From the IMG/VR virus record IMGVR_UViG_3300008113_000149, positions 3,970-67,969 of that record: a stretch of 64,000 nt of DNA; one strand, written 5' to 3'. Shown here piece by piece: positions 30,639-43,300 of this stretch. The DNA is from a virus. Positions within the stretch are counted from its first letter, which is position 1. Each line of letters opens with the position of its first letter. The position numbers were made by a program, and so were the translations under genes. Under the pieces are notes generated by a model. That model was given only the letters and a program-made list of their open reading frames with translations. It was not told the DNA's origin and did not search any database.

Positions 30639-33281
30639 ATGGCAACACCACTGGAAGTAATAGCGTCCGAATTACTTAAATCTGCCATCGATGCAGAGAA
30701 ACTATTTGGCAAAACAAAAGACCAATCCTACAAGGACAAGGCTGTTCGTTTACGCAGAATAGTTGTTAACTTACAAGAGTTAACAATCGGCACCAGTAGT
30801 GTTGCCACACTAAATGATTTAACTGATGTAACGATCAGTGCCCCGGCTAACGCACAAGTACTAACCTACAACTCCACCACAGGACAATGGGAAAATCAAA
30901 CTCCTGCTGGCGGTGGCGGTGGAGGGGACATGAGTAAAAGCACCTACGATACAGACAATAGTGGAATCGTAGACAAAGCAGAAGCCTTAATGACCTTGGG
31001 GAGAAACTCTACAGGGGCGACTTTATATAAAGGTACAGTAATCAGAATCCAAGGTTCGACAGGGCACCTTCCTAACTTTGTAAAGGCCCAGGGTAACAAC
31101 GATGCTAATTCAGCACAAACCTTTGGTGTAGTTGCAACGGACATAAACAACAACTCAGATGGGTATGTTATTGTTCAAGGAACGATTGATACTTTAGATA
31201 CTCGTTCAGTAGCGACACATCCTTTTACAGACGTTACTCTCGTAGACGGAGACATTCTTTACCTTCACCCTACAATTCCTGGATATCTTACGAACGTAAA
31301 ACCTTCGGCTCCTCAGCACTTAGTTTACGTAGGGGTCGTAACTAGAACCTCTCCGACAAACGGAACTATAGTTTATAGAATTCAGAACGGATACGAGTTA
31401 TACGAACTTCACGATGTAGCCATTGCCTCAGAAGTTAACAACGACCTTTTAGTTTATGAATCTTCTACGGATTTATGGAAGAACAAAAGCATATCTACCA
31501 TCTTTGGAGGTACTCCTTTGGTCTCAGTTCCTACCCTAGCTCAAGTAACCACAGCAGGGAACACCACCACCAATGCCATTACTGTAGGTGGGCTTGAAGT
31601 TAAGTCTGGGGCAATTTATGTAGCAAATACCGGAAATCACACCGCACAAGGTTATACGTTTAGAATTTGGAGTACATCCAATAACTTCACTTTAGATTTA
31701 AATGGAACTGGTAGTATAACACATCAGCAAGTTTTAATATTCGGCATTGGGAACGCTACTTCATACAATGAAGCCATGAGAGTAGCATCAACAAGGAACG
31801 TTCTCATAGGCACTACTACCGATGCAGGATATAAGTTAGATGTTAATGGAACTGCTAGAATAGTAAATAAAACAAACATAGGAAGTGAGACTGTTTCTCA
31901 AGGATCATTATACATTGGACATAACGGAACAGCTGGTGGAAGTAATGGAACCTCAACTGTATTCTTCGTGTCTCAGTTTGGAAACTACCCTTATAGACTA
32001 GGAGCTGAAGGTAACGGATATGACTTTTACTTAAGACAAGCAAATGGAGGTCAAGGGAGTATAAATATTGACTTTAGTGGATTAAATAGTATTTCTTACA
32101 ACATAACAAATACAAATGTATTAAATCAGTCTTTTGGAAAAAGCGTTGTTATAGACGCTAAAACGAGCCTTAACTCCTACTTAGCAATGGGAACACGCTT
32201 TGGGTTTAGCGACTCACTTACAGCAGGCGATAGTCCGTTGATATTCTTTAGATCAATGAGTGGCAGTTACTATGATAAAACATTAGATGCTGCCGTTACT
32301 ATTCGCAATGGTTTACCAACAGTTGCCGATAACAATATCACAAAGAATACAGCATATTGGTACAGGAATGGTTACATTGGAATAGGAACTTCAACAACTC
32401 TCTCTGCAACTAATACATTAAAAGGCGCAATTACTATAAACCAAGGGACAACAATAGGGTATCAGAACCTAAACCCTGGAAGTTTGTCGTCTGTAATTAC
32501 ATCTGGAACATCTACAACTGTAACATTTACTCCAAATAACGGAAATGTAGTTCCAGGATATGACATTATTGTAGGAACAATTATCACAGCCAACGGAGTT
32601 AGTAGAAGAGTAACAGCAGTAAATTACCAAAGTGTCACAGTTGATAGCGCAGTAGATTGGAGTGCGGGGTATAACTATACATACAGAAATCCATACGTAA
32701 GTATAGCGGATGGATCTACTCCAATTTTCGACATACTACCAAGTGGAAACGTAGCAGTAGGTACAACAACAGGACTTGCTAAATTCACAGTAGCAGGCTC
32801 AATCACTGCGGCCTCACTTATTGCAAGAGGAGTATACTTCAACAACACTTTAGTAGCAGCAGCAAACAATGACGTATTAGTAGGACTAGACATCAATCCT
32901 ACCTTTACTAATGGTGCGTTTACAAATGTTACAAGAAACTCGTTAAGAATACAAGGAAATAATGGTGGTAGCCACCCGTTATTGTCAGTATTAATGCCTA
33001 ATAATACAACAACCACTTGGTTATCTGTTAGAAATACAAATGATTATTTAGTAGGCACTGTTGCTGCTGAGTTTGGTGTTGCAGGAACTGCAGGTTCTTT
33101 TTTTACGGGTACTGCACAGGGGGATATTGCTTTTAAAGCATACAGTCAAGCAGGAACAAGTAAATTTTTTATCGGAGCAACAAGTGGGAGTGCTGCTCAA
33201 ATAGTTTTATTCCCATCAACCAATAATGTATCTATAGGAACAACCACAGACGCAGGATACAAACTAGATGTAATCAATTAA
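30639..33281 (+). CDS. tail fibre protein, N-terminal part (frameshifted into 33296..34846)
   Basis: LNDLTDVTI, ELHDVAI and TLAQVTTAGN segments; IGTTTDAGYKLDV repeats; the ORF ends in the middle of a repeat. Confidence 0.75.
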   Translation: MATPLEVIASELLKSAIDAEKLFGKTKDQSYKDKAVRLRRIVVNLQELTIGTSSVATLNDLTDVTISAPANAQVLTYNSTTGQWENQTPAGGGGGGDMSKSTYDTDNSGIVDKAEALMTLGRNSTGATLYKGTVIRIQGSTGHLPNFVKAQGNNDANSAQTFGVVATDINNNSDGYVIVQGTIDTLDTRSVATHPFTDVTLVDGDILYLHPTIPGYLTNVKPSAPQHLVYVGVVTRTSPTNGTIVYRIQNGYELYELHDVAIASEVNNDLLVYESSTDLWKNKSISTIFGGTPLVSVPTLAQVTTAGNTTTNAITVGGLEVKSGAIYVANTGNHTAQGYTFRIWSTSNNFTLDLNGTGSITHQQVLIFGIGNATSYNEAMRVASTRNVLIGTTTDAGYKLDVNGTARIVNKTNIGSETVSQGSLYIGHNGTAGGSNGTSTVFFVSQFGNYPYRLGAEGNGYDFYLRQANGGQGSINIDFSGLNSISYNITNTNVLNQSFGKSVVIDAKTSLNSYLAMGTRFGFSDSLTAGDSPLIFFRSMSGSYYDKTLDAAVTIRNGLPTVADNNITKNTAYWYRNGYIGIGTSTTLSATNTLKGAITINQGTTIGYQNLNPGSLSSVITSGTSTTVTFTPNNGNVVPGYDIIVGTIITANGVSRRVTAVNYQSVTVDSAVDWSAGYNYTYRNPYVSIADGSTPIFDILPSGNVAVGTTTGLAKFTVAGSITAASLIARGVYFNNTLVAAANNDVLVGLDINPTFTNGAFTNVTRNSLRIQGNNGGSHPLLSVLMPNNTTTTWLSVRNTNDYLVGTVAAEFGVAGTAGSFFTGTAQGDIAFKAYSQAGTSKFFIGATSGSAAQIVLFPSTNNVSIGTTTDAGYKLDVIN

Positions 33282-34846
33282 ATAATAATGGTTCATTGAA
33301 TACAGGTGGAAATGTTGTTGCGACAGGTGCTTCAAGTAGGTTAGGTAATTTTAGTATATTAACAACAGGTAACGCTTCTACTGGATTTGGTGTTTCTACT
33401 GAAGAATCATCTGTTAATTTTCAAGGAGATACGTTAGGAAGTACAACGATAGGCTCTCAATTTACATTTAGAAAATGGAATAGTACCACTGCTGCATTAA
33501 ATTTTATAAATTCTGGAATTATAAGAATTACAAAAACAGGTTTTAATAGTGGTAACGTAAATAACTTATCGGGAAATACTTTGTGGATTGAACCAACGTA
33601 TAATTTTAGCAATGCTTTAATTACGGGAACAACTGTAAGGGGTATTTACTACAATCCAACGCTTACAAGTTTAACCAATACTACCCACTACGGAATACAT
33701 ACAACTTCTGGAGGTGCTTATATTAATACAGCGTCACCAAACGCTTCGGCTGCTTTACAAGCCGATTCTATAACGCTAGGATTCTTACAACCAAGAATGA
33801 CCAATGCACAAGCATTAGCAATAGTTACACCTGCTACTGGTCTTCAAGCATACGATACCACCAACAACAAAAACTTAGTCTACAACGGAACTCTTTGGCA
33901 GAACATAGCAACTGAAAGTTGGGTAACAGGTCAAGGATACATTACTTCTCAACCTTGGACAGTAAGTGGAAGCGACATTTACTACAATACAGGCAACGTA
34001 GGTATAGGAACAGCATCTCCGCTTTATAAACTTCATGTATCAGGTACTGCTGGAGATATAGTCTATATATTAGCAACTTCTAAACTTCATATAAATGGAG
34101 CTGATCCATTTTTAAGAGTAAACAATGTTGGAAGTGCTAATACACACGGAATAAAAATTAGTTATAATTCTTCTGATACTCAAGGATTTCACTTATTATA
34201 TAATCCAGCTTTAGCGGTTGCTTATTTGGATAATACATACCTAGTTACCTCTGGACAACCTTATGGAGACATATACTTCAGGCAAAATGTTTCTGGTACC
34301 ATGACTACCAGAATGACTATTAAGGCTGAAACAGGCAATATAGGTATAGGAACAACAACACCAACAGACAAACTACACATCGTAGACAACACCAATGGTA
34401 ATAAGTTTGCAAGGATCAGTGCTGGTGGAAGTGATGCGAGTGCTGCATGGGTTGCACAGAACGACCAGGTCGACAACGTAGTGTACCGTGTGTTCAGTTC
34501 TGGAGTTTCGGGGTCTCAGATGGGAATAGCGTTAGCACGCAGTGCATCGTTGATGGCCAACCTCGGAGGAAGCGGTAAGTTCTTGCTCGGAACATACTCC
34601 AACACCGACTTTGTGATGGGTACAGGTAACGCAGAGAAGATGCGTATCGTAGACTCAACTGGTAACATACTCATTGCAACCACAACCGACCTAGGAAATA
34701 AACTAGAGGTAAACGGTGAAATAAACTCAACTGGATACAAAATAAACAATGTTTTAGGCTACACAGGCATCCTAAATATCCCAATGAATCCCCCTGGTCA
34801 GCAAAACGTTGATATACAGAGTGGAATTATCGTAAATATTTTCTAA
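33272..34846 (+). CDS. tail fibre protein, C-terminal part (no good start codon; probable continuation of 30639)
   Basis: GFLQPRMT, GNVGIGT and EKMRI fibre repeats. The frame is open from 33227 and has only a TTG start at 33296. Confidence 0.7.
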   Translation, partial: NQLNNNGSLNTGGNVVATGASSRLGNFSILTTGNASTGFGVSTEESSVNFQGDTLGSTTIGSQFTFRKWNSTTAALNFINSGIIRITKTGFNSGNVNNLSGNTLWIEPTYNFSNALITGTTVRGIYYNPTLTSLTNTTHYGIHTTSGGAYINTASPNASAALQADSITLGFLQPRMTNAQALAIVTPATGLQAYDTTNNKNLVYNGTLWQNIATESWVTGQGYITSQPWTVSGSDIYYNTGNVGIGTASPLYKLHVSGTAGDIVYILATSKLHINGADPFLRVNNVGSANTHGIKISYNSSDTQGFHLLYNPALAVAYLDNTYLVTSGQPYGDIYFRQNVSGTMTTRMTIKAETGNIGIGTTTPTDKLHIVDNTNGNKFARISAGGSDASAAWVAQNDQVDNVVYRVFSSGVSGSQMGIALARSASLMANLGGSGKFLLGTYSNTDFVMGTGNAEKMRIVDSTGNILIATTTDLGNKLEVNGEINSTGYKINNVLGYTGILNIPMNPPGQQNVDIQSGIIVNIF

Positions 34847-34855
34847 ATTTGTGTT

Positions 34856-35146
34856 ATGATCAAGATACAAGATGTAATCGTACCAACTAAGGGAACAGCA
34901 AAATACTTCAATGTTATTGCATTGAACTTCCCAATGAACCCTAGTTCAGTTACTTTTTACTGGCAGATTTTTTCAGAGGTATCTGAGCCCGCAGATCAAT
35001 CGGACGAGCAACCAACACTGAAACCTGGTGTATCGTTGATGGACGGCAACTTAACAATGGATCAAACAACTTACAATTCATGGAACAACGATGACACTTA
35101 TGTCATTGATTGGGCCTTATCGCAACTCGGATTTACTAAAATTTAA
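34856..35146 (+). CDS. small tail-fibre-associated protein
   Basis: GNLTM...YNSW...DTYVIDW.L.QLG pattern typical of small proteins following fibre genes; own promoter at 34844. Confidence 0.55.
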   Translation: MIKIQDVIVPTKGTAKYFNVIALNFPMNPSSVTFYWQIFSEVSEPADQSDEQPTLKPGVSLMDGNLTMDQTTYNSWNNDDTYVIDWALSQLGFTKI

Positions 35147-35149
35147 AAC

Positions 35150-35410
35150 ATGATAAACTTCAACAAAAACTTACTTGACCTCGAAGGAAAAGAAATCGAG
35201 GGAGCAAACATTGGCAAAATCGTAGCCCAAACACTGGTACAATCTTCAAAAGGAGACGCTTTAAAGTACTGGGGCTGGGCAACTAAAATGAATGCTGGCG
35301 AAGAATTGGACTTGGACAAAAGCGACACCGAGACACTCAAAAACTTTATTAAGGAGTCAGAAACATTGACTATCCTTACTAAAGCACAGGCGTTAGAGTG
35401 TTTTGAGTAA
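35150..35410 (+). CDS. small tail-associated hypothetical protein (possible chaperone)
   Basis: 86-aa ORF starting INFNKNLLDLEGK. Confidence 0.55.
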   Translation: MINFNKNLLDLEGKEIEGANIGKIVAQTLVQSSKGDALKYWGWATKMNAGEELDLDKSDTETLKNFIKESETLTILTKAQALECFE

Positions 35411-35421
35411 CATGACCTAAT

Positions 35422-36648
35422 ATGAAACTCTCCCTTAGGGCATCAATATCACTGGGTGTGGCCATTCTGATAATGATGGTGTTCTTTGGGGTACAGAGTG
35501 CGGTTGTATTTGGATATTTCGAACCGTCATTATTAGTTATAGAATTTGGGTATGGTTGCATCATTGCTTTCATACCCTTTTTCTTTTTTACGCTCATTGA
35601 ATTTGTTCGCAAAGCAAAATACAAATCGCAGTCTGTTGATGATACTTTAAAGGCAATCAACATATCAAACGCTTTGGTGGAGTTGGATTTGCAGGGCAAT
35701 ATTCTGAGTGCCAACAAAGTGTTTTGTGAAATTATTGGGTACTCGGTCTCAGAACTTAAAACGGTAAAACACCGACAACTCGTACCCGAAGTAAGCGACT
35801 ACGATTACAAAATGTTTTGGAGAAACCTACAACTAGGTTACGCAAACTCTGGTGAGTTCCAAAGAATCAGTAAGAGCGGGGAAATTGTTTGGATATACGG
35901 TAATTATAACCCAATCAAAGATCCATACGGTGAGGTGTATCGCGTGATTAAGATTGCCTCAGACATTACTGACAAAAAGAAAATCGAAGCAGAGGTTGCC
36001 AAGAAAAACAGTTATCTGGAACACGCCGCCAAGATTCTACGTCACGACATGCATTCTGGAATCAACACCTACATCCCAAGGGGATTATCGTCGTTGAAGC
36101 GTCGCTTGAGCGAAGAGCAGATTAAAGAAATGCGTATTGAAGGGCCGTTGAAGTTAATCGAAGAGGGATTGACACATACCCAAAAGGTTTACAAAGGCGT
36201 TAAAGAATTCACCAACTTGGTGAAAAAAGATGCACAACTGGAGAAGACAGAGTGCAATTTGAAAGATATTTTGCAGTCTTATCTGTCATCTACTTCATAT
36301 GAAAAACAAGTAGTTATCGATGAGATGCCTATTAAATTGGTCAATGAAAGTTTATTCTGCACCGCCGTGGATAACTTGATTCGGAACGGCCTAAAATATA
36401 ACGATTCGCCAACGAAGATCGTTCGTATCTTTGTTGAAAACGGTTACTTTGTGATACAGGACAATGGTCGAGGCATGTCACAGCAAGATTTCGCGCTGTG
36501 GTCTCAGCCTTACACCCGAAAGGAAGGACAGGAAGAAGCAGGATCGGGCCTAGGACTTAACATCTGTACTGCAATCATGGAAGAACATGGCTTCAAAATA
36601 GAAGTTGAAAAGTTACAAGTAGGCACAAAAATAAAATTAAAGATATGA
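35422..36648 (+). CDS. membrane-bound PAS-domain sensor histidine kinase
   Basis: Two N-terminal TM helices; PAS/PAC (ELDLQGNILSANKVFC...YNPIKD...DIT); H box RHDMHS; N box DNLIRNGLKY; G1 IQDNGRGM; G2 GSGLGL. Confidence 0.93.
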   Translation: MKLSLRASISLGVAILIMMVFFGVQSAVVFGYFEPSLLVIEFGYGCIIAFIPFFFFTLIEFVRKAKYKSQSVDDTLKAINISNALVELDLQGNILSANKVFCEIIGYSVSELKTVKHRQLVPEVSDYDYKMFWRNLQLGYANSGEFQRISKSGEIVWIYGNYNPIKDPYGEVYRVIKIASDITDKKKIEAEVAKKNSYLEHAAKILRHDMHSGINTYIPRGLSSLKRRLSEEQIKEMRIEGPLKLIEEGLTHTQKVYKGVKEFTNLVKKDAQLEKTECNLKDILQSYLSSTSYEKQVVIDEMPIKLVNESLFCTAVDNLIRNGLKYNDSPTKIVRIFVENGYFVIQDNGRGMSQQDFALWSQPYTRKEGQEEAGSGLGLNICTAIMEEHGFKIEVEKLQVGTKIKLKI

Positions 36649-37082
36649 TCGATTCTATATTACTGGTTGACGACGAGGACTTGTTCCATTTGGTGTTTGA
36701 AGATTCATGTTCATTATTGGACATCACGCTTTCTCTTCAGAGTTTGACTTCATCTGACGAGGCAGACCGCTTGTTCAAGAAGTGGTTCAACGAAGGCCCG
36801 GTAGAGGAAAGACCAGAGTGCGTATTTGTCGACCTTAATATCATCGGCTCATCTTTTGACGGAATTGAGTTGATTAGAAAGATCAATACCGAGTATGGCA
36901 ATGGTGTGGTGATAGGAATCATCTCGTCTTCTGACGACAAGCAGGAGATTGAAAAGGCCAAAAAGGTGGGGGCTCAGTTCTGGATCATCAAGTCAGACGA
37001 AATCGAACCCCGTCTAGAGGCATTCCGTAACGACTACGACGGATACAAAAACAAGACTGCTCCCTTTAAAGTGTACAAGTGA
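36645..37082 (+). CDS. single-domain (CheY-like) response regulator
   Basis: ILLVDDE, phosphoacceptor FVDLNI, ISSS and IIKS; no output domain; ATGA overlap with the kinase. Confidence 0.92.
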   Translation: MIDSILLVDDEDLFHLVFEDSCSLLDITLSLQSLTSSDEADRLFKKWFNEGPVEERPECVFVDLNIIGSSFDGIELIRKINTEYGNGVVIGIISSSDDKQEIEKAKKVGAQFWIIKSDEIEPRLEAFRNDYDGYKNKTAPFKVYK

Positions 37083-37627
37083 TAACCTTCAGCAAGGATA
37101 CCTGTAATGAACTGATAGCGTTATACAAAACCAAAAAGATATCGCTAGAAGGAAATATCTTAAAAGTCATTAAGGGTGGAGATGCTGAGTTTTCAAAGTA
37201 CATCGAGGAGGCAAAACAGCGGGACAACGATACTAGGCGGAAGCGATTAGAAATCACCAAGCAGGTCCAACAACAGAACAAAGATTTAACTGAGAGCCAG
37301 GCCGACAGGGACAAACTGATGGCTGAGTTACAGGTGTCTTTGGCGGAGTCAGAAAAACTAAAGAACGCGGCGGTTGAAGATTTAGAAACCCTACAGAAGC
37401 GAACTCAGTTTGAGTTGGTAGGATTGATTGTTAAGGTTGCATTAGGAGTAATCGGCACAGTTGCATTTTTGACATCTATTTTATACTTTTACGTCATATC
37501 TAAAGGATTGGATGCCAAGATCATAGAGAGCACTTGGTCAAATCTTTTTGGTATATTGCTGACGAATTCGTTTTCTATAATAGGAACAATCATGGGAGTT
37601 AAATACGCATCTGGTGAAAAGGGGTAG
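37079..37627 (+). CDS. coiled-coil protein with two C-terminal TM helices
   Basis: GTGA overlap with the response regulator; heptad-rich centre; hydrophobic segments LVGLIVKVALGVIGTVAFLTSILYFYV and LFGILLTNSFSIIGTIMGV. Confidence 0.8.
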   Translation: MITFSKDTCNELIALYKTKKISLEGNILKVIKGGDAEFSKYIEEAKQRDNDTRRKRLEITKQVQQQNKDLTESQADRDKLMAELQVSLAESEKLKNAAVEDLETLQKRTQFELVGLIVKVALGVIGTVAFLTSILYFYVISKGLDAKIIESTWSNLFGILLTNSFSIIGTIMGVKYASGEKG

Positions 37628-37937
37628 TCAAGAGTGGATAGACAGTATGAATCGTGCCTGCGATAGCCTTGTGGACATGATGCATGCGAGTCATGTTGAG
37701 GAGATGAATGAAATCGATGATGTGAGCGCGATGCAATCCTCAACTGTAGAACCATTGGATACAGATGCTAACTGGTATATGGGGGCACAGAGTTATGTAG
37801 TGCCTGCATTTTTTGTGATCATGCTGACCTTATTTATTTTTGGCACGATGACATTATTGGACACTCGCAAGGCAAATAAAAATAAACACAAGTTGAAAGT
37901 TTTGGATTTTTTGGAAGACGATAAACAATCAAAATAA
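37614..37937 (+). CDS. small single-TM membrane protein (start uncertain)
   Basis: Acidic N-terminus, hydrophobic VVPAFFVIMLTLFIFG, basic tail. Confidence 0.55.
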   Translation: MKRGSQEWIDSMNRACDSLVDMMHASHVEEMNEIDDVSAMQSSTVEPLDTDANWYMGAQSYVVPAFFVIMLTLFIFGTMTLLDTRKANKNKHKLKVLDFLEDDKQSK

Positions 37938-37957
37938 AAATTAATTATATTTGTATT

Positions 37958-38239
37958 ATGCAAGAAATATTCTCACGCACATTAGACTTTCAGAGCGGTT
38001 TAACCGGGTGTAGAGTCATCTCCAATACATCAGCAAACACTGGAGGATTCCAAGGTTTTGTGGTGAATTCAGACGCTGTTGTTGCTCAAGTATTAAATTC
38101 TGCGGGATCAGATATTACTTCTGCTCTTGGACTCACTGGAGTAACTATTAAACAAGGAATGTTGATTACCGCTGCTGAGGGTGCATTCTTCTCTTCAATT
38201 ACATTGACCAGCGGTAGTGTTGTTGCTTATCTGAAATGA
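37958..38239 (+). CDS. small beta-rich structural protein
   Basis: 93 aa ending in SITLTSGSVVAY; promoter at 37946. Confidence 0.6.
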   Translation: MQEIFSRTLDFQSGLTGCRVISNTSANTGGFQGFVVNSDAVVAQVLNSAGSDITSALGLTGVTIKQGMLITAAEGAFFSSITLTSGSVVAYLK

Positions 38240-39078
38240 TAGGAATTGGGTTAAATATTGGCAATCGTGTAATGGGCGGTGGAGGCGGTGCTCCTGCTTT
38301 TGACGTAGACGCTCAAGCCTTCTTTGACCGCGTAACCACTGCGGGTGGGACATTGTCAGAAACCGAAAAAACTGCAACCAATCAATTGGTACTTGATATG
38401 AAAACTGCGGGTATTTGGTCAAGTATGAAAGCCGTTTACCCAATGGTGGGTGCAAGTGCGGCAGCGTGTGCACAAAACTTAAAGAGCAGTTCTTTTACGG
38501 GTACATTTAGTAGTGGTTGGACTTTTGCGAGTACGGGGGTAACGCCAAATGGTGGGAGTGCGTTTATGAATACAGGTTTAAACATTGGTACAGAATTAAC
38601 ACAAACAAATTCACACGCTTCTTTTTATTCAAGAACTGCAAGTGATACCAGTCCCTATCCTACTGTCCTTGGTGCTTATGGTAATGGCTCATATACTCGG
38701 GCAATTGACTTGTATATTCGTAGACCAACGCCAGGCGACAAAGGAGGAGGACAATTGGGTAGTTTTACGACATCGGTAATCAATTATACAGAAACCGATG
38801 CACGAAAATTTGCTATATTATCAAGAACGAGTGCAACAAGTTTGAAGTATTACACGACAGGAATTTTAAGAGATACAAACACAACAAGCGACACAACTGG
38901 ATTCGGTAGTGTAACTGCTTACATTGGTGCAGGTAATTTTCAAAATCTTTCCGCACAAAACTTTTCAATTTTACAATGTGCTTTTGCTTCCATCGGTGAC
39001 GGCTTAACCGACACCCAAGCATCCAATTTCTACACCGCAGTACAAGCGTTTCAAACAACCCTTTCAAGACAAGTATAA
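38236..39078 (+). CDS. lectin/LamG-like virion accessory protein
   Basis: DVDAQAFF...LVLDMKTAGIWS...AVYPMVG start; S/T-rich beta core; YTAVQAFQTTLSRQV end. Confidence 0.55.
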   Translation: MIGIGLNIGNRVMGGGGGAPAFDVDAQAFFDRVTTAGGTLSETEKTATNQLVLDMKTAGIWSSMKAVYPMVGASAAACAQNLKSSSFTGTFSSGWTFASTGVTPNGGSAFMNTGLNIGTELTQTNSHASFYSRTASDTSPYPTVLGAYGNGSYTRAIDLYIRRPTPGDKGGGQLGSFTTSVINYTETDARKFAILSRTSATSLKYYTTGILRDTNTTSDTTGFGSVTAYIGAGNFQNLSAQNFSILQCAFASIGDGLTDTQASNFYTAVQAFQTTLSRQV

Positions 39079-39305
39079 TGTTAGGTTACACACTTACACC
39101 CGAAGAAAAGGATTTGATTCAAGGGCAGTATTACACGCCTTATCAATTTTTTAATTGCGTTCAAGACATTAACGGAACTTGGTTTTTGTTTCTTTCCGAT
39201 GAAGACAAACCCGAAGTTGCAATAACCGAATACGCTTGGGTTTTAGATTTACCCGAAGCCGAATACATACCACCACCAGCACCGCCATTCCCACCTACTG
39301 AATAA
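39078..39305 (+). CDS. hypothetical protein with a Pro-rich C-terminus
   Basis: 75 aa, coupled to the previous gene; contains FNCVQDINGTWF. Confidence 0.7.
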   Translation: MLGYTLTPEEKDLIQGQYYTPYQFFNCVQDINGTWFLFLSDEDKPEVAITEYAWVLDLPEAEYIPPPAPPFPPTE

Positions 39306-39586
39306 TGACTGCTCCAAAGATAAAACCCAACGCGTTCCCGGTTTCATTTGATCAATTCAAGAAGAACCCAATTGCTGCTGTAGCATTTTGTATGCTAGTT
39401 GCTGTTTCATATTTGTACTACGATGTAAAGACTGGTTATTCAGCGCAGATTGAGAATGCTAATGCAAAGATCACAGCGTTGGAAATAAAGGTAGATAGGA
39501 TGAGTTCAGCATTAAAGAAATCTGACTCCGCCCTCGCTGCCGCCATTACTGAGTTGAGAATCATCAACACCGTCAAAAAGTTATGA
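39305..39586 (+). CDS. single-TM coiled-coil protein (possible lysis component)
   Basis: Hydrophobic PIAAVAFCMLVAVSYLYY followed by heptad repeats. Confidence 0.6.
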   Translation: MTAPKIKPNAFPVSFDQFKKNPIAAVAFCMLVAVSYLYYDVKTGYSAQIENANAKITALEIKVDRMSSALKKSDSALAAAITELRIINTVKKL

Positions 39587-40008
39587 AAAACATACTACTT
39601 ATATTCTGCGCCTTGTTTTTGATGGGAGAATTGATCTTCCCAGTAAAGGCATTGAACTCTCCGAACATCGATGAGATCGAAGAGATGTTAAAAAAGGTTG
39701 AGAACAACATGAAGATGGCTTCTCAAGTCGTGTCTGTCGCCAAAGAAAAAGGTGAAAAGTTGGTAGAAACCAAAGTAGAAGAGAAGGCAGAATTGAAAGA
39801 AGCCGTTCTTACTGCTGAGGCCAAGGTCGAAGTAATGGAAAAAAAGAACGAAGTTTTCATGCAGAGAATGGTAGAAGTTGGGTTAGATACCAGCACGGTA
39901 CCTGTTGAAGAGGCAAAGTTGGCAGGACCTGTCTATGACGAATGGTTACAGTACAGAAAGAACGGTGGGGAATCAGATTTTGAGTACTACCGTTTGTACA
40001 AGAAATAG
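39583..40008 (+). CDS. signal-peptide/TM coiled-coil protein
   Basis: MKNILLIFCALFLMGELIF N-terminus followed by an E/K-rich helix. Confidence 0.6.
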   Translation: MKNILLIFCALFLMGELIFPVKALNSPNIDEIEEMLKKVENNMKMASQVVSVAKEKGEKLVETKVEEKAELKEAVLTAEAKVEVMEKKNEVFMQRMVEVGLDTSTVPVEEAKLAGPVYDEWLQYRKNGGESDFEYYRLYKK

Positions 40009-40043
40009 TTTGAAAATTGAATTCAAAGTTATATTTTTGATAT

Positions 40044-40292
40044 ATGAAAAAATTAATTGGATTTATTAGCGGTATGTTTACCGATGAAAAAGGTAAACCA
40101 TCCTCTAAGAGATTCGTTGGAATCGTTGCTGGGTTGATGTTATGCGTCACCATGTATGAAAACTCATTTACTGAGGCTCACTTTGCTCCTGCTGAATCAT
40201 TGGTGAACGCTGTTGCTGCTTTGGCATTCGGTTGTTTGGGTTTGGCTAGTGCTGACAAATTCTTCGGAAAGAAGTCTGATGGCGAAGGATAA
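40044..40292 (+). CDS. holin-like two-TM protein
   Basis: SSKR followed by two hydrophobic helices and a charged C-terminus; own promoter (TTTG 40009, TATTTTTG 40032). Confidence 0.55.
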   Translation: MKKLIGFISGMFTDEKGKPSSKRFVGIVAGLMLCVTMYENSFTEAHFAPAESLVNAVAALAFGCLGLASADKFFGKKSDGEG

Positions 40293-40569
40293 TCCCATAC
40301 CAAAGACTACCAAAGGCAAAAGTGCCAATTACCTCCCCACTAAAAAGGGGGCGGGGATGACGGCTAAAGGCGTTGCTGCCTATAGAAAAGCAAATCCTGG
40401 CTCTAAATTAAAAACCGCAGTGACTGGCGAGGTAAAGGCAGGAAGTAAAGATGCAAAGAGACGCAAGTCTTTTTGTGCTCGTAGCGCAGGGCAAATGAAG
40501 ATGTTCCCCAAGGCGGCCTCAGATCCTAATTCAAGACTGAGACAGGCCCGTAAAAGATGGAAGTGCTAA
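40279..40569 (+). CDS. basic protein, DUF6321-like
   Basis: GMTAKGVAAYR..NPGSKLK...RRKSFCARS...RW.C; start moved to ATG 40279. Confidence 0.65.
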   Translation: MAKDNPIPKTTKGKSANYLPTKKGAGMTAKGVAAYRKANPGSKLKTAVTGEVKAGSKDAKRRKSFCARSAGQMKMFPKAASDPNSRLRQARKRWKC

Positions 40570-40673
40570 TGTTTAACTGCAATTTTGTACAACAGAAATT
40601 AATGGAGATGAATGCCAAGACTCCAAAACAAGGGGGCAAAATAAAGGTAAAGAAAAATAAACCAAAAAAATGA
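40569..40673 (+). CDS. 34-aa basic peptide (not in the ORF track)
   Basis: MFNCNFVQQKLMEMNAKTPKQGGKIKVKKNKPKK; start and stop overlap both neighbours. Confidence 0.5.
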   Translation: MFNCNFVQQKLMEMNAKTPKQGGKIKVKKNKPKK

Positions 40674-40960
40674 CGCCAAAAAAACCTATGGCAAAAAGCA
40701 CCAAGAAGGTGATGCCAGCAAAACCAGTTAAGTCGGGCAAAATGTCAACTGCCCCTAATAAAAAGATGAGTTCTAAGTACGGAACAGAAGGTACAGGAAC
40801 TGCCCCAAAAGGAACTCCTGTTTATAGTCGTTCTGCCCCCACCAAGTCTTATCAAGATAGTATGGCTGCCTATAACAAATACAAAGGTAAAGCAGCAGGT
40901 GCTGAAAATCTTAAACCCAAAGGTGCTCCAAAAACCTTTGTAAAAATGAAGAAATCATGA
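40670..40960 (+). CDS. Lys-rich basic protein
   Basis: K/P/A/M-rich; coupled to neighbours. Confidence 0.7.
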   Translation: MTPKKPMAKSTKKVMPAKPVKSGKMSTAPNKKMSSKYGTEGTGTAPKGTPVYSRSAPTKSYQDSMAAYNKYKGKAAGAENLKPKGAPKTFVKMKKS

Positions 40961-41259
40961 AACCCAAAAAACCCGTAGTCGGACCAGTTACAAAAAAGGT
41001 AGCCAAGAAGGTTGCTCCGAAAGTACCAATGACATCGGCAGGAACTGCTGAAGCAAAGGCCGCTAAGAAAAAATCAATGATGAAGACTGTTGGTACTGCT
41101 ATTGGCGTGGCGGGTGCTACTGTTGGATCAATGTTGGCAGATGCTAGATTTCAACGTGGTGCCGAAAGAATTCGAGGCAATAGAGCCAATGTAAAGGTTT
41201 CTCCTAAAGATGCCTGGAAAGCAGGTAAGAATCAAAAATCAACTAAGAAAAAACCATAA
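40957..41259 (+). CDS. Lys-rich basic protein
   Basis: K/A-rich with a central GTAIGVAGATVG segment. Confidence 0.7.
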   Translation: MKPKKPVVGPVTKKVAKKVAPKVPMTSAGTAEAKAAKKKSMMKTVGTAIGVAGATVGSMLADARFQRGAERIRGNRANVKVSPKDAWKAGKNQKSTKKKP

Positions 41260-41261
41260 TC

Positions 41262-41780
41262 ATGCCAAACATTAAGGAGAAAGTACGTGCCGTAAAAACC
41301 AAAACCAAAGCGGTTGTTGGTGCCAAAGTTAAAAAGGTTGGTACACTTGCTAAACAAGAGGCTCGTGGTGCTAGTGTAAACGCTCGTCAGAGGGTTGCTG
41401 ATATGCAAGACGACAACACTCTTGGATATGTAAAGCGTCAAGGTCGTGTTAGCGCAAGACGTGCTGAGCGTGTTAAGCGTTCTTATGAAAGAAATATAAG
41501 CAGTCCTACTGCTCCCAAATACAAAGGAGAGAACTTGCCAGGAAGCAAAAGAAAAGCTATTCGTACAATCAACGAAAGTCTTAATACGAAATTGCAGGGT
41601 AGAGAGCGTAAGAAATTGGCTAAGGCATATTATGCTGATTTGAAATCAAAACCAAAGACAATGGAAGAGATGCGCAAACAGAACAAAAAGAAATCTAAAC
41701 AAGCATCTAAGTGTATTCCTGGAGGAAAAGGAAATAACTTGTGTTTGCCACAAGGTCGTAACAATGAAGGAGGATTTTAA
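41262..41780 (+). CDS. Lys/Arg-rich basic protein
   Basis: 172 aa, strongly basic. Confidence 0.7.
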   Translation: MPNIKEKVRAVKTKTKAVVGAKVKKVGTLAKQEARGASVNARQRVADMQDDNTLGYVKRQGRVSARRAERVKRSYERNISSPTAPKYKGENLPGSKRKAIRTINESLNTKLQGRERKKLAKAYYADLKSKPKTMEEMRKQNKKKSKQASKCIPGGKGNNLCLPQGRNNEGGF

Positions 41781-41783
41781 GAA

Positions 41784-41951
41784 ATGAAAAAACCAGTAAA
41801 AAAAGCCGTAGGTAAGAAGATTTCTGAATATGGAGGTATGGAAAAGTACACTTCTAAAAAGGCTGAGATGAAGCATGAAAAGAAAGAGGGTAAGAAGGTT
41901 GAAGCCAAAGAGAAAATGATGTATTCTAACTTGAAAAAGAAGAAAAAGTAA
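41784..41951 (+). CDS. 55-aa basic protein (not in the ORF track)
   Basis: MKKPVKKAVGKKISEYGGMEKYTSKKAEMKHEKKEGKKVEAKEK...; fills the gap, stop overlaps the next ATG. Confidence 0.7.
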   Translation: MKKPVKKAVGKKISEYGGMEKYTSKKAEMKHEKKEGKKVEAKEKMMYSNLKKKKK

Positions 41952-42163
41952 TGGCATACGGCACTAAAAAGCAAAGATCAACTATCGTTAAGAAGGCGGT
42001 TGCTGGTAAAGACTTAGGAAAGAAAGGTAAAGAATTCAAACCTATGGCTCAAGCAGTCGCTAAATCTTACGAGAAAAAGGGGATGTCTTCCGCTAAAGCC
42101 GAAGCAATTGGTAAGGCAACTGCGGCCAAAACCATGTGGAAAAAACTCACTAAGAAAAAGTAA
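41951..42163 (+). CDS. Lys-rich basic protein
   Basis: KKAVAGKDLGKKGK.F...AKTMWK. Confidence 0.7.
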   Translation: MAYGTKKQRSTIVKKAVAGKDLGKKGKEFKPMAQAVAKSYEKKGMSSAKAEAIGKATAAKTMWKKLTKKK

Positions 42164-42315
42164 TGGCTGGCAAGGCAAAAGTAAAAACTTCCAAAGAAAT
42201 TGCTAAGTGGAAACCAAAAGCAAAGGTTCGCCGCCCGGGTGTGGTTTCTAAAAAGAAGAACAGCAAACTCAAGTCAAGTAAAAATTATCGTAAGGCTTAC
42301 AAAGGTCAAGGATGA
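42163..42315 (+). CDS. 50-aa basic protein (not in the ORF track)
   Basis: MAGKAKV...SSKNYRKAYKGQG; coupled on both sides. Confidence 0.7.
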   Translation: MAGKAKVKTSKEIAKWKPKAKVRRPGVVSKKKNSKLKSSKNYRKAYKGQG

Positions 42316-42656
42316 AAGACGCTTGCTACACTAAAGTCAAAGCAAAATATGCTGTATTCCCTTCTGCAAGGGCATCTCAAGCAATTGCCAAGTGTAGAAA
42401 ATCATCTGGTACAGTACGAAAAACAAAGGCTGGTTCAGATTTAAAAAGATGGGGAGCAGAAAAATGGGTAGATACTAAAAGTGGCAAAGCCTGTGGAGCA
42501 GGTGGATCTAATGAGTATTGCCGCCCATCAAAAAGAGTATCATCAAAAACACCAGTTACAAAGTCTGAATTAAGCCCATCAAAACTCGCGGCAAAGAAAG
42601 CCGAGAAATCGAGAGTTGGAATGGGTAAAAGAGTTACAAACGTAAAAAGAAAATGA
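42312..42656 (+). CDS. basic protein, DUF5872-like
   Basis: DACY.KVK..Y.VFPSA.AS...KCR...LKRW..EKWVD...YCRPSKRVSSKTP. Confidence 0.65.
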   Translation: MKDACYTKVKAKYAVFPSARASQAIAKCRKSSGTVRKTKAGSDLKRWGAEKWVDTKSGKACGAGGSNEYCRPSKRVSSKTPVTKSELSPSKLAAKKAEKSRVGMGKRVTNVKRK

Positions 42657-42742
42657 CGGAAGGTTTTTTATTCGGGGTAATATTCTGTATCTTTTTGTGG
42701 CTTATGGGGTATGCTGTTGCTAGTTATAGACACAAATCATGA
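42653..42742 (+). CDS. 29-aa single-TM peptide (not in the ORF track)
   Basis: MTEGFLFGVIFCIFLWLMGYAVASYRHKS; ATGA overlaps at both ends. Confidence 0.5.
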   Translation: MTEGFLFGVIFCIFLWLMGYAVASYRHKS

Positions 42743-43050
42743 AATTTATCACGCCAATTTTACTAGTGATTCTGATCGCTTTGCTGGGGTATCAGACTTT
42801 TGTAAAGGAAGAACCAGACACCAAGAGTGAAATACTACACTTCTTGGATTCAATTGAAAAGCACAACGAAGTCGTATTCAGCAAAATAGATTCGCTAGAC
42901 CGACTGAAGCACGAGGAATACAAAGTCTACGAACAACTCAATTTAAAATATGACACGATTCAAATTGCTATTGACACTATGCCTGACATTGATGGCACAA
43001 AATATCTACTCACAATCAGTAGACAGCTTACCGCTAAAGGAGTTGAATAA
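42739..43050 (+). CDS. N-terminal TM coiled-coil protein, spanin-like
   Basis: TM helix followed by heptads; overlaps the next gene by ~100 nt. Confidence 0.5.
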   Translation: MKFITPILLVILIALLGYQTFVKEEPDTKSEILHFLDSIEKHNEVVFSKIDSLDRLKHEEYKVYEQLNLKYDTIQIAIDTMPDIDGTKYLLTISRQLTAKGVE

Positions 43051-43300
43051 TGAATTCCTCAAAGGAATAAAGGCCCGGGAGCGTGTGGTAACTCTGAAGA
43101 CCATCATTCAGTTGGACAGCCAGCAACTGAGTTTGTACAAAGATACCATTGTTCCCAATTACAAAAAGGCATTGGATACCTGTAAGTATGAGATCGTTCG
43201 TTTGAACGGAGTCATTGATCGTAAGGACCAAGCCATGAAGTTTTACAAGTACGGGTTTATTGGAACCACTGTACTTTTTATTTTAAAATTAATTATTTGA
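42950..43300 (+). CDS. signal-peptide + C-terminal TM protein, spanin-partner-like
   Basis: Signal-like N-terminus, coiled coil, C-terminal GFIGTTVLFILKLII; Rz/Rz1-like overlap with the previous gene. Confidence 0.5.
   Translation: MTRFKLLLTLCLTLMAQNIYSQSVDSLPLKELNNEFLKGIKARERVVTLKTIIQLDSQQLSLYKDTIVPNYKKALDTCKYEIVRLNGVIDRKDQAMKFYKYGFIGTTVLFILKLII

What the first reader, a model, noticed from the sequence alone, without database searches (positions are those of the whole stretch)
35422..37937. Phage-encoded complete two-component signalling cassette (PAS kinase + CheY-like regulator + membrane coiled-coil protein) in the tail/lysis block
Seen in sequence: a 2-TM PAS histidine kinase with intact H, N, G1 and G2 boxes; a receiver-only regulator with its DD, D, S and K residues intact; and a coiled-coil 2-TM protein. 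The three are chained by ATGA/GTGA stop-start overlaps, and a fourth 1-TM ORF follows. There is no flanking transposase or integrase. The cassette sits between tail-fibre genes and holin/spanin-like genes, downstream of the promoter box at 34844. Established: complete two-component systems are unusual in phages of this size, and single-domain receivers act by protein-protein contact rather than by binding DNA. Inference: the phage senses host physiology late in infection and relays the signal to the coupled membrane protein or to holins. This could control lysis timing, lysis inhibition or superinfection exclusion.
Basis: partly seen in the sequence, partly recalled or inferred. Interest (0 to 1): 0.92.

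Follow-up and report, generated by a model that had tools for sequence, protein, structure and literature searches.

The report
Phage sensor relay to membrane hairpin
An uncultured freshwater phage carries its own sensor kinase, phospho-receiver and a virus-only membrane protein as a fixed three-gene unit that many unrelated phages share, and comparison with relatives suggests it lets the phage adjust a late membrane event, most likely host lysis, to a sensed signal.

Summary
Window 35422-37937 encodes a 2-TM PAS histidine kinase (HK), a 145-aa stand-alone receiver (RR), a coiled-coil 2-TM protein (CC) and a 1-TM ORF, joined by 4-, 4- and 14-nt overlaps, in a 99%-complete 68-kb virus record.

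HK-RR-CC is a fixed unit. It is present in 58-60 of 61 non-redundant loci. In metagenome contigs RR lies directly upstream of CC in 64 of 64. It is absent from 50,697 deposited phages, and both 'genome' hits are phage contigs. Independent assemblies bridge both junctions.

Natural domain swaps give the wiring:
- PAS or GAF sensors like those on the kinases are fused through a coiled coil to the same hairpin (253 viral relatives), with no RR and no kinase core (0 of 57).
- The coil changes length only in heptads (120 of 121).

So the hairpin is the regulated output, and HK-RR most likely feeds CC's N-domain.

The link to lysis is strong for the fusions (52 of 57 within 1.5 kb of lysis-type genes), partial for the trio (28 of 60), and indirect in this window, where no endolysin or Pfam holin was found. 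No function has been tested.

My searches found nothing in print. Earlier agents of this scan reported the same trio and a sensor-hairpin fusion on other DNA.

The parts
34844..34851 (+). TAAATTTG box 12 nt before the start at 34856. It is the candidate start of the transcription unit that holds the trio. The next box on this strand before a gene start is at 37946.
   Evidence: 8 such boxes lie 12-16 nt before gene starts, against 0.24 expected. Promoter function is inferred, not shown.
34856..35410 (+). Two small ORFs (96 and 86 aa) between the box and the kinase. Their function is unknown, and they are not part of the conserved unit.
   Evidence: No Pfam family passes its cutoff. Conserved in only 5 of 61 loci.
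35422..36648 (+). Membrane-anchored sensor histidine kinase. It has 2 TM helices with a very short outside loop, a cytoplasmic PAS domain (residues about 80-186), a DHp helix with H208 (codon 36043-36045) and a HATPase_c domain (311-407).
   Evidence: H, N, G1 and G2 motifs are invariant in 55 of 55 relatives. By sequence the kinase core matches HK853, QseC, EnvZ and CpxA type kinases.
36645..37082 (+). Stand-alone receiver (REC) of 145 aa with a conserved C-terminal tail. The phospho-acceptor is D63 (codon 36831-36833).
   Evidence: Response_reg 34.1 bits. Invariant D9, D10, D63, S94-96, W113 and K116. AF2 model: pLDDT 89.6, pTM 0.85. 461 PDB matches at E<=0.001; all rows shown are receiver domains.
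37079..37627 (+). CC, the virus-only output protein. It has a small N-domain (about 1-35, invariant E24-G25 with N26 nearly invariant), a basic patch (R53, K55, R56), one long coiled-coil helix (36-142) running into TM1, and a nearly invariant polar TM2 (W153 to about A177).
   Evidence: No Pfam or PHROG family. No PDB fold match at E<=0.001. Only 251 hits among 1.84 billion representatives.
37614..37937 (+). 107-aa ORF with one TM segment, overlapping CC by 14 nt. It is an accessory neighbour, not part of the fixed unit.
   Evidence: Its family follows CC in 11 of 61 loci.
40044..40292 (+). 82-aa 2-TM protein and candidate holin-type gene. It is the only link between this window and recognised lysis cassettes.
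   Evidence: No Pfam or PHROG hit. In relatives its family lies directly beside the PG_binding_1+Amidase_2 endolysin and the Phage_holin_4_1 genes (L033, L074, L031, L051, L054). It also lies directly after the GAF-hairpin fusion in 2 of 3 loci.

Best explanation
The phage encodes a self-contained signalling pathway whose output is a membrane hairpin.

Proposed path:
1. The membrane-anchored kinase senses a cytoplasmic or membrane cue through its PAS domain. In relatives the sensor is GAF, or TM helices only.
2. The kinase autophosphorylates on H208 and passes the phosphate to D63 of the stand-alone receiver.
3. The phospho-receiver binds the small cytoplasmic N-domain of CC.
4. The change is carried down CC's continuous, register-preserving coiled coil to the C-terminal two-helix hairpin.
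5. The hairpin's invariant polar TM2 acts in the inner membrane.

The regulated event is most likely the timing of holin-dependent lysis. Either the hairpin restrains holins like an antiholin, or it perturbs the membrane so that holins of any family fire.

Shown here: the parts, their intact catalytic residues, their fixed linkage, the interchangeability of 'kinase + receiver + CC N-domain' with a directly fused sensor, the heptad rule, and frequent neighbourhood with lysis genes in relatives.

Inferred: phosphotransfer, the receiver-to-CC contact, what the hairpin does, and the direction of the effect on lysis.
For: 1. Fixed unit.
- Of 61 non-redundant loci, RR is in 60, HK in 59 and CC in 58. 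No neighbour family reaches 20.
- In a separate metagenome collection, 64 of 80 loci held CC. RR lay directly upstream in 64 of 64. A kinase core lay upstream in 40 of the 41 loci with enough flank.

2. Different phage backbones.
- Five other trio-bearing records are 68-236 kb at 24-77% CheckV completeness, and none has a terminase like this window's.
- Flanking genes differ between loci.

3. Constraint.
- Catalytic residues are invariant.
- RR is 69-97% identical across loci, against 43-91% for HK and 51-91% for CC.

4. Domain swaps.
- P0169, P0175 and P0163 are PAS(x1-2)-coil-hairpin. P0162 is GAF-coil-hairpin.
- The P0169 type has 253 viral relatives.
- In 57 non-redundant loci, RR is in 0 of 57 and a kinase core in 0 of 57. 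The 3 full-length GAF-fusion loci also lack both.
- The fused PAS is 33-40% identical to this kinase's PAS. The fused GAF is 44-60% identical to GAF regions directly upstream of the kinase core in trio loci.
- The TM2 motif is found in 60 of 60 fusions and 54 of 58 trio CCs.
- Conversely, CC's N-domain plus coil is fused to a HATPase_c kinase core in P0250, P0257 and P0260. P0257 and P0260 also score 26.7 and 26.1 bits on HisKA, just under the 26.9 cutoff. Their clusters have 1, 4 and 8 members, on contigs up to 100 kb. So CC's N-domain behaves as an input domain.

5. Heptad rule.
- The spacing between two conserved CC anchors is 34, 41, 48, 55, 62, 69 or 76 residues in 120 of 121 sequences.
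- In the fusions the PAS-to-anchor spacing is 42 (59 sequences) or 35 (1 sequence).

6. Lysis linkage.
- A family with PG_binding_1 + Amidase_2 (30.8-31.5 bits, cutoff 26) and a Phage_holin_4_1 family (24.1-26.3 bits, cutoff 22.2) recur beside the unit.
- A lysis-type family lies within 1.5 kb in 52 of 57 fusion loci and 25 of 60 trio loci.

7. Established background. Falling proton motive force drives holin triggering, and antiholins set lysis time (PMC9636201, passages read).
Against: - In this window no endolysin or recognised holin is near the unit or anywhere in the record. The only link is the unannotated g40044 family.
- 32 of 60 trio loci show none of the four lysis-type families within 6 kb. 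That count misses this window's own g40044, which my ORF picker dropped, so the figures are really 29 of 60 with and 31 of 60 without.
- Two of the four 'lysis-type' families (g40044-like and c12) are called so only from context. Counting only the Pfam-backed holin and amidase families gives 19 of 60 trio loci and 31 of 57 fusion loci.
- No Pfam HisKA match for the kinase at E<=0.1.
- No receiver-hairpin fusion was found among the 18 odd-length CC-family hits examined.
- No RNA run holds the stretch, so expression is unknown.
- All loci come from searches seeded with this family, so counts of co-occurrence are of relatives, not independent events.
Confidence: 0.55

Rival explanations
1. The same phosphorelay-to-hairpin pathway exists, but it controls another late membrane process and not lysis. 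Candidates are superinfection exclusion, blocking of incoming DNA, membrane remodelling for assembly, or countering a host defence that acts on the membrane.
For: 32 of 60 trio loci have no lysis-type family within 6 kb. In this window the unit follows tail-fibre genes, and no endolysin was found. TM2 is nearly invariant while the neighbouring holin-type families differ, so its partner could be a conserved host membrane protein.
Against: The one-component form lies within 1.5 kb of lysis-type genes in 52 of 57 loci and within 400 nt in 42 of 57. The trio often sits inside the order amidase, holin, kinase, receiver, CC.
Confidence: 0.2
2. The receiver's real target is a host protein, such as a motility switch, a host kinase or another regulator. 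CC would then be a separate membrane protein that is merely co-transcribed, with its own input through its N-domain.
For: The receiver is far more conserved (69-97%) than CC's cytoplasmic part, as expected if it contacts a conserved host target. CC's N-domain also occurs on kinase cores, so it might sense something by itself.
Against: RR lies directly upstream of CC in 64 of 64 metagenome loci. It is absent in 0 of 57 and 0 of 3 loci where a sensor is fused to the hairpin. That complementary pattern is hard to explain if RR and CC are unrelated. Translational coupling by 4-nt overlaps also argues against it.
Confidence: 0.12
3. The genes are a passively captured host operon or an assembly artefact with no role in the phage.
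For: The kinase and receiver belong to families that are overwhelmingly cellular.
Against: - The scan of 185,579 species genomes, seeded with exact peptide words of the receiver, found 2 loci. Both carry phage genes: a T4-type split topoisomerase II (E 1e-191) and a baseplate wedge.
- The nearest solved receivers shown are 15-24% identical.
- Frames are intact and catalytic residues invariant across 54-55 diverged copies.
- A 2,781-nt contig in run X3 covers 35155-37935 with 0 differences, and a 31,420-nt contig in run X6 covers 34376-38261.
- The stretch is held by 20 runs of 13 studies, 2 of which may be the source.
Confidence: 0.02

Closest known systems
Two-component pathways with single-domain receivers that act by protein contact (CheA-CheY to FliM; DivJ/PleC-DivK). 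Recalled from general knowledge, not from a call.
   Same: A histidine kinase plus a receiver without an output domain. The acidic pocket, the Ser/Thr, the Lys and the aromatic switch residue are all present, and the fold is REC.
   Different: It is encoded by phages. The proposed target is a virus-only coiled-coil membrane hairpin, not a motor or a kinase. The receiver is only 15-24% identical to the solved ones shown. Binding to CC is not shown.
Phytochrome-linked stand-alone receivers (DrBphR 6xvu, RcpA 1k68, Rcp1 1i3c, RPA3017 4zyl)
   Same: They are among the closest solved structures: ranks 1-3, 5, 9 and 15 by Foldseek, E 2.9e-08 to 1e-06, TM 0.64-0.75. They are about 140 aa and have a C-terminal extension beyond the REC core.
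   Different: Identity is 17-21%. They have different partners, and nothing is known that links them to membrane proteins or phages.
Phage T4 lysis inhibition: holin T with antiholins RI and RIII (PMC11413866 and PMC8385771 abstracts from the listing; PMC9636201 passages)
   Same: A phage-encoded sensing device that changes lysis time in response to a signal. It involves membrane or membrane-associated regulators encoded near or with lysis genes.
   Different: T4 senses superinfection through a periplasmic antiholin that binds the holin directly. There is no kinase, receiver, PAS or GAF. There is no sequence or family similarity to CC.
Lambda S107/S105 and phage 21 S21-71/S21-68 antiholin-holin pairs and pinholins (PMC9636201 passages)
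   Same: Small helical membrane proteins whose state, coupled to proton motive force, sets the moment of triggering. A two-helix hairpin topology occurs in pinholins.
   Different: CC has a cytoplasmic input region of about 110 residues and matches no holin family. Its regulation would come from a phosphorelay or a fused sensor, not from a dual start.
Bacterial LytSR control of holin-like Cid/Lrg proteins. Recalled from general knowledge, not from a call.
   Same: A two-component system tied to holin and antiholin-like membrane proteins.
   Different: LytR is a DNA-binding regulator that acts on transcription, and the system is cellular. Here the receiver has no DNA-binding domain, and the link would be protein to protein.
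PAS-to-coiled-coil signalling in sensor kinases and Aer-type receptors (signalling helices). Recalled from general knowledge.
   Same: The sensor domain is joined to its output by a helix whose length varies in heptads. In the trio kinases the PAS DxT motif lies exactly 27 residues before the phospho-His in 33 of 33 measured.
   Different: The output is a two-helix membrane hairpin, not a kinase, cyclase or methyl-accepting array.

Membership tests
Histidine kinase, HisKA/HATPase_c type (class I) | ATP-binding HATPase_c domain with N, G1 and G2 boxes | tested here: met
   PF02518 at 53.5 bits (cutoff 26.4). Present in 55 of 55 relatives. N318/N322, DNGxG 347-351 and GxGLGL 374-379 are invariant.
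Histidine kinase, HisKA/HATPase_c type (class I) | DHp helix with a conserved phospho-acceptor His that matches the HisKA model | tested here: inconclusive
   H208 in RHDMHSG is invariant. phmmer aligns residues 186-397 to solved kinases (8f71, 6azr, HK853). However, Pfam HisKA gave no hit at E<=0.1.
Histidine kinase, HisKA/HATPase_c type (class I) | Autophosphorylation and phosphotransfer | not testable with these tools
   Needs a biochemical assay.
Receiver domain (Response_reg, PF00072) | Profile match above the curated cutoff and a (beta-alpha)5 fold | tested here: met
   34.1 bits against a 30.2 cutoff. The AF2 model has five strands alternating with five helices, at pLDDT 89.6. 461 PDB matches at E<=0.001; all rows shown are receiver domains.
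Receiver domain (Response_reg, PF00072) | Acidic pocket (DD + D), conserved Ser/Thr, Lys and the aromatic switch | tested here: met
   D9, D10, D63, S94-96, K116 and W113 are invariant in 54 of 54 sequences.
Single-domain (CheY-like) response regulators acting by protein contact | No output domain | tested here: met
   145 aa, with REC covering residues 5-117 plus a short conserved tail. RR is 143-148 aa in nearly all loci. Fused longer forms were not searched with lengths='longer'.
Single-domain (CheY-like) response regulators acting by protein contact | A defined protein target bound in the phosphorylated state | not testable with these tools
   The target is inferred to be CC from gene linkage and domain swaps. 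Binding needs a bench assay.
Holins / antiholins (for CC) | Match to a known holin or antiholin family | tested here: not met
   No Pfam or PHROG family matches CC. No PDB fold match at E<=0.001. The nearest Atlas clusters are viral and carry no Pfam family.
Holins / antiholins (for CC) | Encoded beside the endolysin or holin | tested here: inconclusive
   Met in relatives: 25 of 60 trio loci and 52 of 57 fusion loci lie within 1.5 kb of a lysis-type family. Not met in this window.
Holins / antiholins (for CC) | Alters hole formation or lysis time | not testable with these tools
   Needs expression and lysis assays.
Signalling coiled coils (signalling-helix type linkers) | Length variation restricted to whole heptads between input and output | tested here: met
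   120 of 121 CC sequences, across 7 of 8 distinct lengths, share one register. Fusion spacings are 42 or 35.

The most novel reading that the evidence does not exclude
The hairpin is a new kind of phage lysis device: a sensor-gated membrane trigger. Its invariant polar TM2 would self-assemble, or gate a leak that lowers the proton motive force. It could therefore fire holins of any family, which would explain why one invariant hairpin sits beside several unrelated holin types. Phages would plug different sensors into it, either directly (PAS, GAF) or through their own kinase-receiver relay. Lysis would then be timed by the energy, redox or envelope state of the infected cell and not by a fixed clock.
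Probability: 0.3. Interest if true: 0.9.

Novelty: new variant of a known kind. Interest (0 to 1): 0.8.

Why it matters
How phages read the state of the infected cell to decide when to lyse is known in detail for very few systems, such as T4 lysis inhibition. Here a complete, phage-owned sensory pathway with a modular design recurs in many uncultured freshwater and other aquatic phages of very different genome sizes. The design is a swappable sensor, an optional kinase-receiver relay, a register-preserving coil and an invariant membrane hairpin. This gives a concrete, testable handle on signal-dependent control of a late membrane event. It also defines a new virus-only effector family and a natural set of one-component and two-component versions that can be compared directly. 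If the output is lysis timing, it bears on burst size, phage ecology in lakes, and the design of switchable lysis modules.

Tried and rejected
- My first idea was that CC is a core phage gene and that HK and RR were inserted next to it. I rejected it because all loci with enough flank keep HK-RR-CC together.
- Complex prediction of RR with CC(1-115) gave no verdict. The score was 0.33, and one control with an unrelated partner scored 0.59. It counts neither for nor against binding.
- Foldseek of the CC model against the PDB gave nothing at E<=0.001. Weak rows to ATP-synthase c-subunit hairpins and seryl-tRNA synthetase coils are uninformative.
- The Atlas gave only unnamed viral clusters. The automatic name 'GLE1-like' carries no weight.
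- No RNA holder was listed for the stretch, so nothing can be said on expression.
- Megablast of 33000-41000 against deposited phages found no match. tblastn of RR, CC and the terminase against the same collection also found no match.
- Searches for the fusions of CC's N-domain to a kinase found nothing usable in viral contigs, or only ordinary CC. The metagenome scan with their alignment returned ordinary trios and generic kinases. Their genomic context therefore stays unknown.
- I looked for a receiver-coil-hairpin fusion among the 18 odd-length CC-family hits examined and found none.
- One-off hairpin 'fusions' with fragments of GT2, SOUL, TsaD, FecCD and RNA polymerase (P0160, P0149, P0179, P0180, P0156) look like chimeras and were not used.
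- In one search my pattern for the second anchor was mis-specified and matched nothing. I repeated the measurement correctly.
- Rows dropped before counts:
  - L001, a copy of the window.
  - Loci with identical RR+CC or identical fusion proteins, removed as duplicates (88 to 61; 80 to 57).
  - ORFs cut by a locus end.
  - L039 and L089 RR, and L039, L057 and L089 CC, left out of alignments A1 and A2. Further loci were left out to keep the two alignments on the same 54 loci.
- My simple ORF picker dropped the window's own g40044 in favour of an overlapping longer ORF. therefore counts the window as having no lysis-type family.
- Literature:
  - Six exact phrases for phage- or virus-encoded kinase, regulator or two-component system gave 0 papers.
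  - Broader term searches listed no paper on such a module.
  - In the jumbo-phage survey PMC7824862 I read the matched passages only. It mentions histidine kinase once, for a different receiver type, and never mentions holin.
  - Supplementary files were not opened.
  - Subscription journals are outside the library.


Full report
WHAT IS THERE

The window is positions 3970-67969 of a 67,969-base IMG/VR virus record that CheckV rates 99% complete. It carries:
- a portal gene (phrog_6547, E 1.1e-52);
- a large terminase (phrog_6681);
- a family-A-type DNA polymerase (phrog_1252, E 2e-136);
- a primase-helicase;
- a tail-fibre-like gene directly upstream of the finding (phrog_18345, E 4.2e-07).

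The phage is far from anything deposited. There was no megablast match and no tblastn match for its terminase. Its polymerase is at most 33% identical to that of any listed record among 50,697 phage records.

- The kinase has two hydrophobic segments, a PAS domain and a HATPase_c domain.
- The receiver passes Pfam's cutoff.
- The third protein and the fourth ORF match no family.

IS IT REAL PHAGE DNA?

The 3.5-kb stretch across both junctions is held by 20 sequencing runs of 13 studies. Two of them may be the source, and most are freshwater, pond or lake samples.

I laid contigs from four other studies on the window:
- A 2,781-nt contig of X3 covers 35155-37935 without a difference.
- A 31,420-nt contig of X6 covers 34376-38261.
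Both bridge the junctions between the cassette and its phage neighbours. The chimeric-assembly objection fails.

A FIXED THREE-GENE UNIT

A scan of IMG/VR with the third protein (CC) found 467 relatives. In every fetched locus with enough flank, kinase, receiver and CC lie in the same order.

After removing duplicates there are 61 loci. The receiver family is in 60, the kinase in 59 and CC in 58. The most frequent neighbour family reaches only 19.

A separate scan of metagenome contigs returned 64 loci with CC:
- All 64 have the receiver directly upstream.
- 40 of the 41 with more than 700 nt of further flank have a kinase core.

The receiver family is very large in metagenomes, with 3,861 clusters at E<=1e-5. 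CC is a narrow family, with 251 hits among 1.84 billion representatives. Its nearest Atlas clusters are 100% viral.

A scan of one genome for each of 185,579 species found two loci. Both are MAG contigs that carry phage genes: a T4-type split topoisomerase II (E 1e-191) and a baseplate wedge.

Other trio-bearing records are 68-236 kb at only 24-77% completeness, and none has a terminase like this window's. The unit therefore sits in unrelated phage backbones, from about 68 kb to jumbo size.

CONSTRAINT

Across 54-55 diverged copies the catalytic residues never change:
- Kinase: H208, N318/N322, DNGxG and GxGLGL.
- Receiver: D9, D10, D63, S94-96, W113 and K116.

The receiver is the most conserved protein (69-97% identity to the window's) and carries a conserved tail beyond the REC core. 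Its model is confident (pLDDT 89.6). Among the nearest solved structures are stand-alone phytochrome-type receivers, at 17-21% identity.

The kinase core is constant but its sensor is not:
- HATPase_c in 55 of 55.
- PAS in 40 of 55.
- GAF in 7 of 55.
- The forms of about 300 aa have neither.

By sequence, the PAS of this window resembles PAS domains of MmoS, DosP and Aer. I could not assign a cofactor.

ANATOMY OF CC

From the alignment and the model (pLDDT 84.3):
- a small N-domain with invariant E24-G25 (N26 nearly invariant);
- a basic patch (R53, K55, R56);
- one helix from residue 36 to 142 that runs into TM1;
- a short loop;
- TM2, which is nearly invariant and polar (T162, N163, S166, T170).

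No solved structure matches.

NATURAL DOMAIN SWAPS GIVE THE WIRING

Among the hits of the CC profile, some proteins have a different front or back end:
- P0169, P0175 and P0163 have two or one PAS domains, then a coil, then the same hairpin.
- P0162 has a GAF domain, a coil and the hairpin.
- P0250, P0257 and P0260 have CC's N-domain and coil in front of a HATPase_c kinase core. P0257 and P0260 also score just under the Pfam HisKA cutoff (26.7 and 26.1 bits against 26.9).

The PAS-hairpin type is common, with 253 viral relatives. In its 57 non-redundant loci there is no receiver (0 of 57) and no kinase core (0 of 57). The three full-length GAF-hairpin loci also have neither.

The sensors are of the same kinds as those of the trio kinases:
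- The fused PAS is 33-40% identical to this window's PAS.
- The fused GAF is 44-60% identical to GAF regions that lie directly upstream of the kinase core in trio loci.

The TM2 motif is present in 60 of 60 fusions and in 54 of 58 trio CC proteins.

The simplest reading is that the hairpin is the regulated output, and that 'sensor-kinase, receiver, CC N-domain' does the job that a directly fused sensor does elsewhere. This is inference from distribution, not a demonstration of contact. The one complex prediction allowed gave no verdict, and I report it only among the things tried.

THE COIL KEEPS ITS REGISTER

The distance between two conserved anchors of CC, one in the basic patch and one just before TM1, takes the values 34, 41, 48, 55, 62, 69 and 76 in 120 of 121 sequences. 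One sequence has 94.

In the fusions the distance from the end of PAS to the same anchor is 42 in 59 sequences and 35 in one. In the trio kinases the PAS DxT motif lies exactly 27 residues before the phospho-His in 33 of 33 measured.

A passive spacer would not be held to whole heptads. This is the behaviour of helices that carry a signal from an input domain to an output domain (comparison recalled from general knowledge of sensor kinases and chemoreceptors).

WHAT THE OUTPUT MIGHT CONTROL

Two recognisable lysis families recur beside the unit:
- An endolysin with PG_binding_1 and Amidase_2 (30.8-31.5 bits, cutoff 26).
- A Phage_holin_4_1 family (24.1-26.3 bits, cutoff 22.2; also phrog_199 'holin').

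Two families of 2-TM proteins of about 80 aa (g40044-like and c12) recur with them. They are 'lysis-type' only by context.

Counts for the trio:
- 28 of 60 loci have one of the four families within 6 kb.
- 25 of 60 have one within 1.5 kb.
- 19 of 60 have the Pfam-backed holin or amidase family.
- 32 of 60 have none. The window was counted among these because my ORF picker dropped its g40044.

Counts for the one-component form:
- 53 of 57 loci have one of the four families.
- 52 of 57 have one within 1.5 kb, and 42 of 57 within 400 nt.
- 31 of 57 have the Pfam-backed families.

Typical gene orders are 'g40044-like, amidase, holin, c3, kinase, receiver, CC' and 'fusion, c12, holin, amidase' (position table).

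In this window the link is weaker. No Amidase_2, Phage_lysozyme or SLT domain occurs anywhere in the record. The downstream 'holin/spanin-like' ORFs match no family. Only g40044, 2.4 kb downstream, belongs to a family that elsewhere sits against the endolysin and holin.

MECHANISM I THINK MOST LIKELY (0.55)

1. The kinase senses.
2. It phosphorylates the receiver.
3. The receiver binds CC's N-domain.
4. The coil transmits the change.
5. The hairpin changes the moment of holin triggering.

TM2 is invariant while the neighbouring holin-type families differ. I therefore favour action through the membrane itself or through self-assembly over binding to one particular holin. Falling proton motive force is known to drive holin triggering (PMC9636201, passages read). 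The direction of the effect, trigger or brake, is open.

Rivals are another late membrane function (0.2), a host target for the receiver (0.12), and passive capture or artefact (0.02).

OPERON

TAnnTTTG boxes lie 12-16 nt before eight gene starts, against 0.24 expected by random placement. These include 34856 and 37958, so the unit may be transcribed together with two small upstream ORFs and the 1-TM ORF. The motif resembles the Bacteroidota promoter element (recalled). That is the only hint at the host.

COMPARISON WITH WHAT IS KNOWN

The kinase and receiver are new members of known families. CC is an undescribed, virus-only family.

As a system it works like a CheY-type protein-contact pathway joined to a signalling coiled coil. 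If the lysis reading holds, it is a functional analogue of T4 lysis inhibition, built from entirely different parts.

My searches found no description in print:
- 0 papers for six exact phrases.
- Nothing relevant in four broader searches.
The library lacks most subscription journals, and I opened no supplements.

Within this scan, earlier agents reported the same trio on other genomes, and one of them reported a sensor-hairpin fusion replacing the trio. I reached the fusions independently, from the profile search, before reading that note. The heptad rule and the reverse swap (CC N-domain on a kinase core) did not appear in the notes I saw.

VERDICT

This is a real, widespread and apparently undescribed phage signalling module with a well-supported wiring diagram and an untested output.

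Noticed in passing
window 213-40039 (boxes at 213, 1062, 8129, 14544, 16755, 29128, 34844, 37946, 40032): TAnnTTTG boxes lie 12-16 nt before the start codons of eight genes, against 0.24 expected from random placement (maximum 3 in 2000 trials). The total count of the motif in the window is not above chance (86 against 73 +/- 8).
   Followed up: partly
window 16767-29102: A single ORF of 4,111 aa lies in the virion gene block. It was not analysed here.
   Followed up: no
whole record (G000): No Amidase_2, Phage_lysozyme or SLT domain was found in the 99%-complete genome. The endolysin of this phage is unidentified.
   Followed up: partly
window 35017-38207: One contig of run X3 joins 35017 to 38207, skipping 3,189 bases that include the whole trio. 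Only 24 letters lie on the shorter side and the depth is 4. It may be a cassette-less variant or an artefact.
   Followed up: no
L021:1085-1285, L025:1254-1454 and 17 other loci: A 66-aa membrane protein with a conserved Cys-Pro...Cys C-terminal motif lies directly upstream of the kinase in 19 of 61 loci. It is absent from this window and could be a co-sensor.
   Followed up: partly
L021:3213-4205 and 14 other loci: A protein of about 330-400 aa with four TM segments follows CC, or follows the holin, in 15 of 61 loci. No family passes its cutoff.
   Followed up: partly
L171, L178, L186, L190: Four of 41 metagenome loci have two kinase cores upstream of a single receiver, which suggests two inputs into one relay.
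   Followed up: no
L089:6998-8995: The trio on this MAG contig is broken (receiver 98 aa, CC 90 aa). This may be due to sequencing errors.
   Followed up: no
window 40213-42656: A run of small, very basic ORFs lies between g40044 and the terminase region. No family matched those that were scanned.
   Followed up: no
window 42739-43300: Two overlapping ORFs (103 and 116 aa), read by eye from the translations. The first has an N-terminal hydrophobic stretch. The second has hydrophobic stretches at both ends. The arrangement is spanin-like but was not tested.
   Followed up: no
proteins P0160, P0149, P0179, P0180, P0156: Single representatives join the hairpin or CC's N-domain to fragments of unrelated enzymes (GT2, SOUL, TsaD, FecCD, RNA polymerase). 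They are probably assembly or gene-call chimeras in the public protein set.
   Followed up: partly
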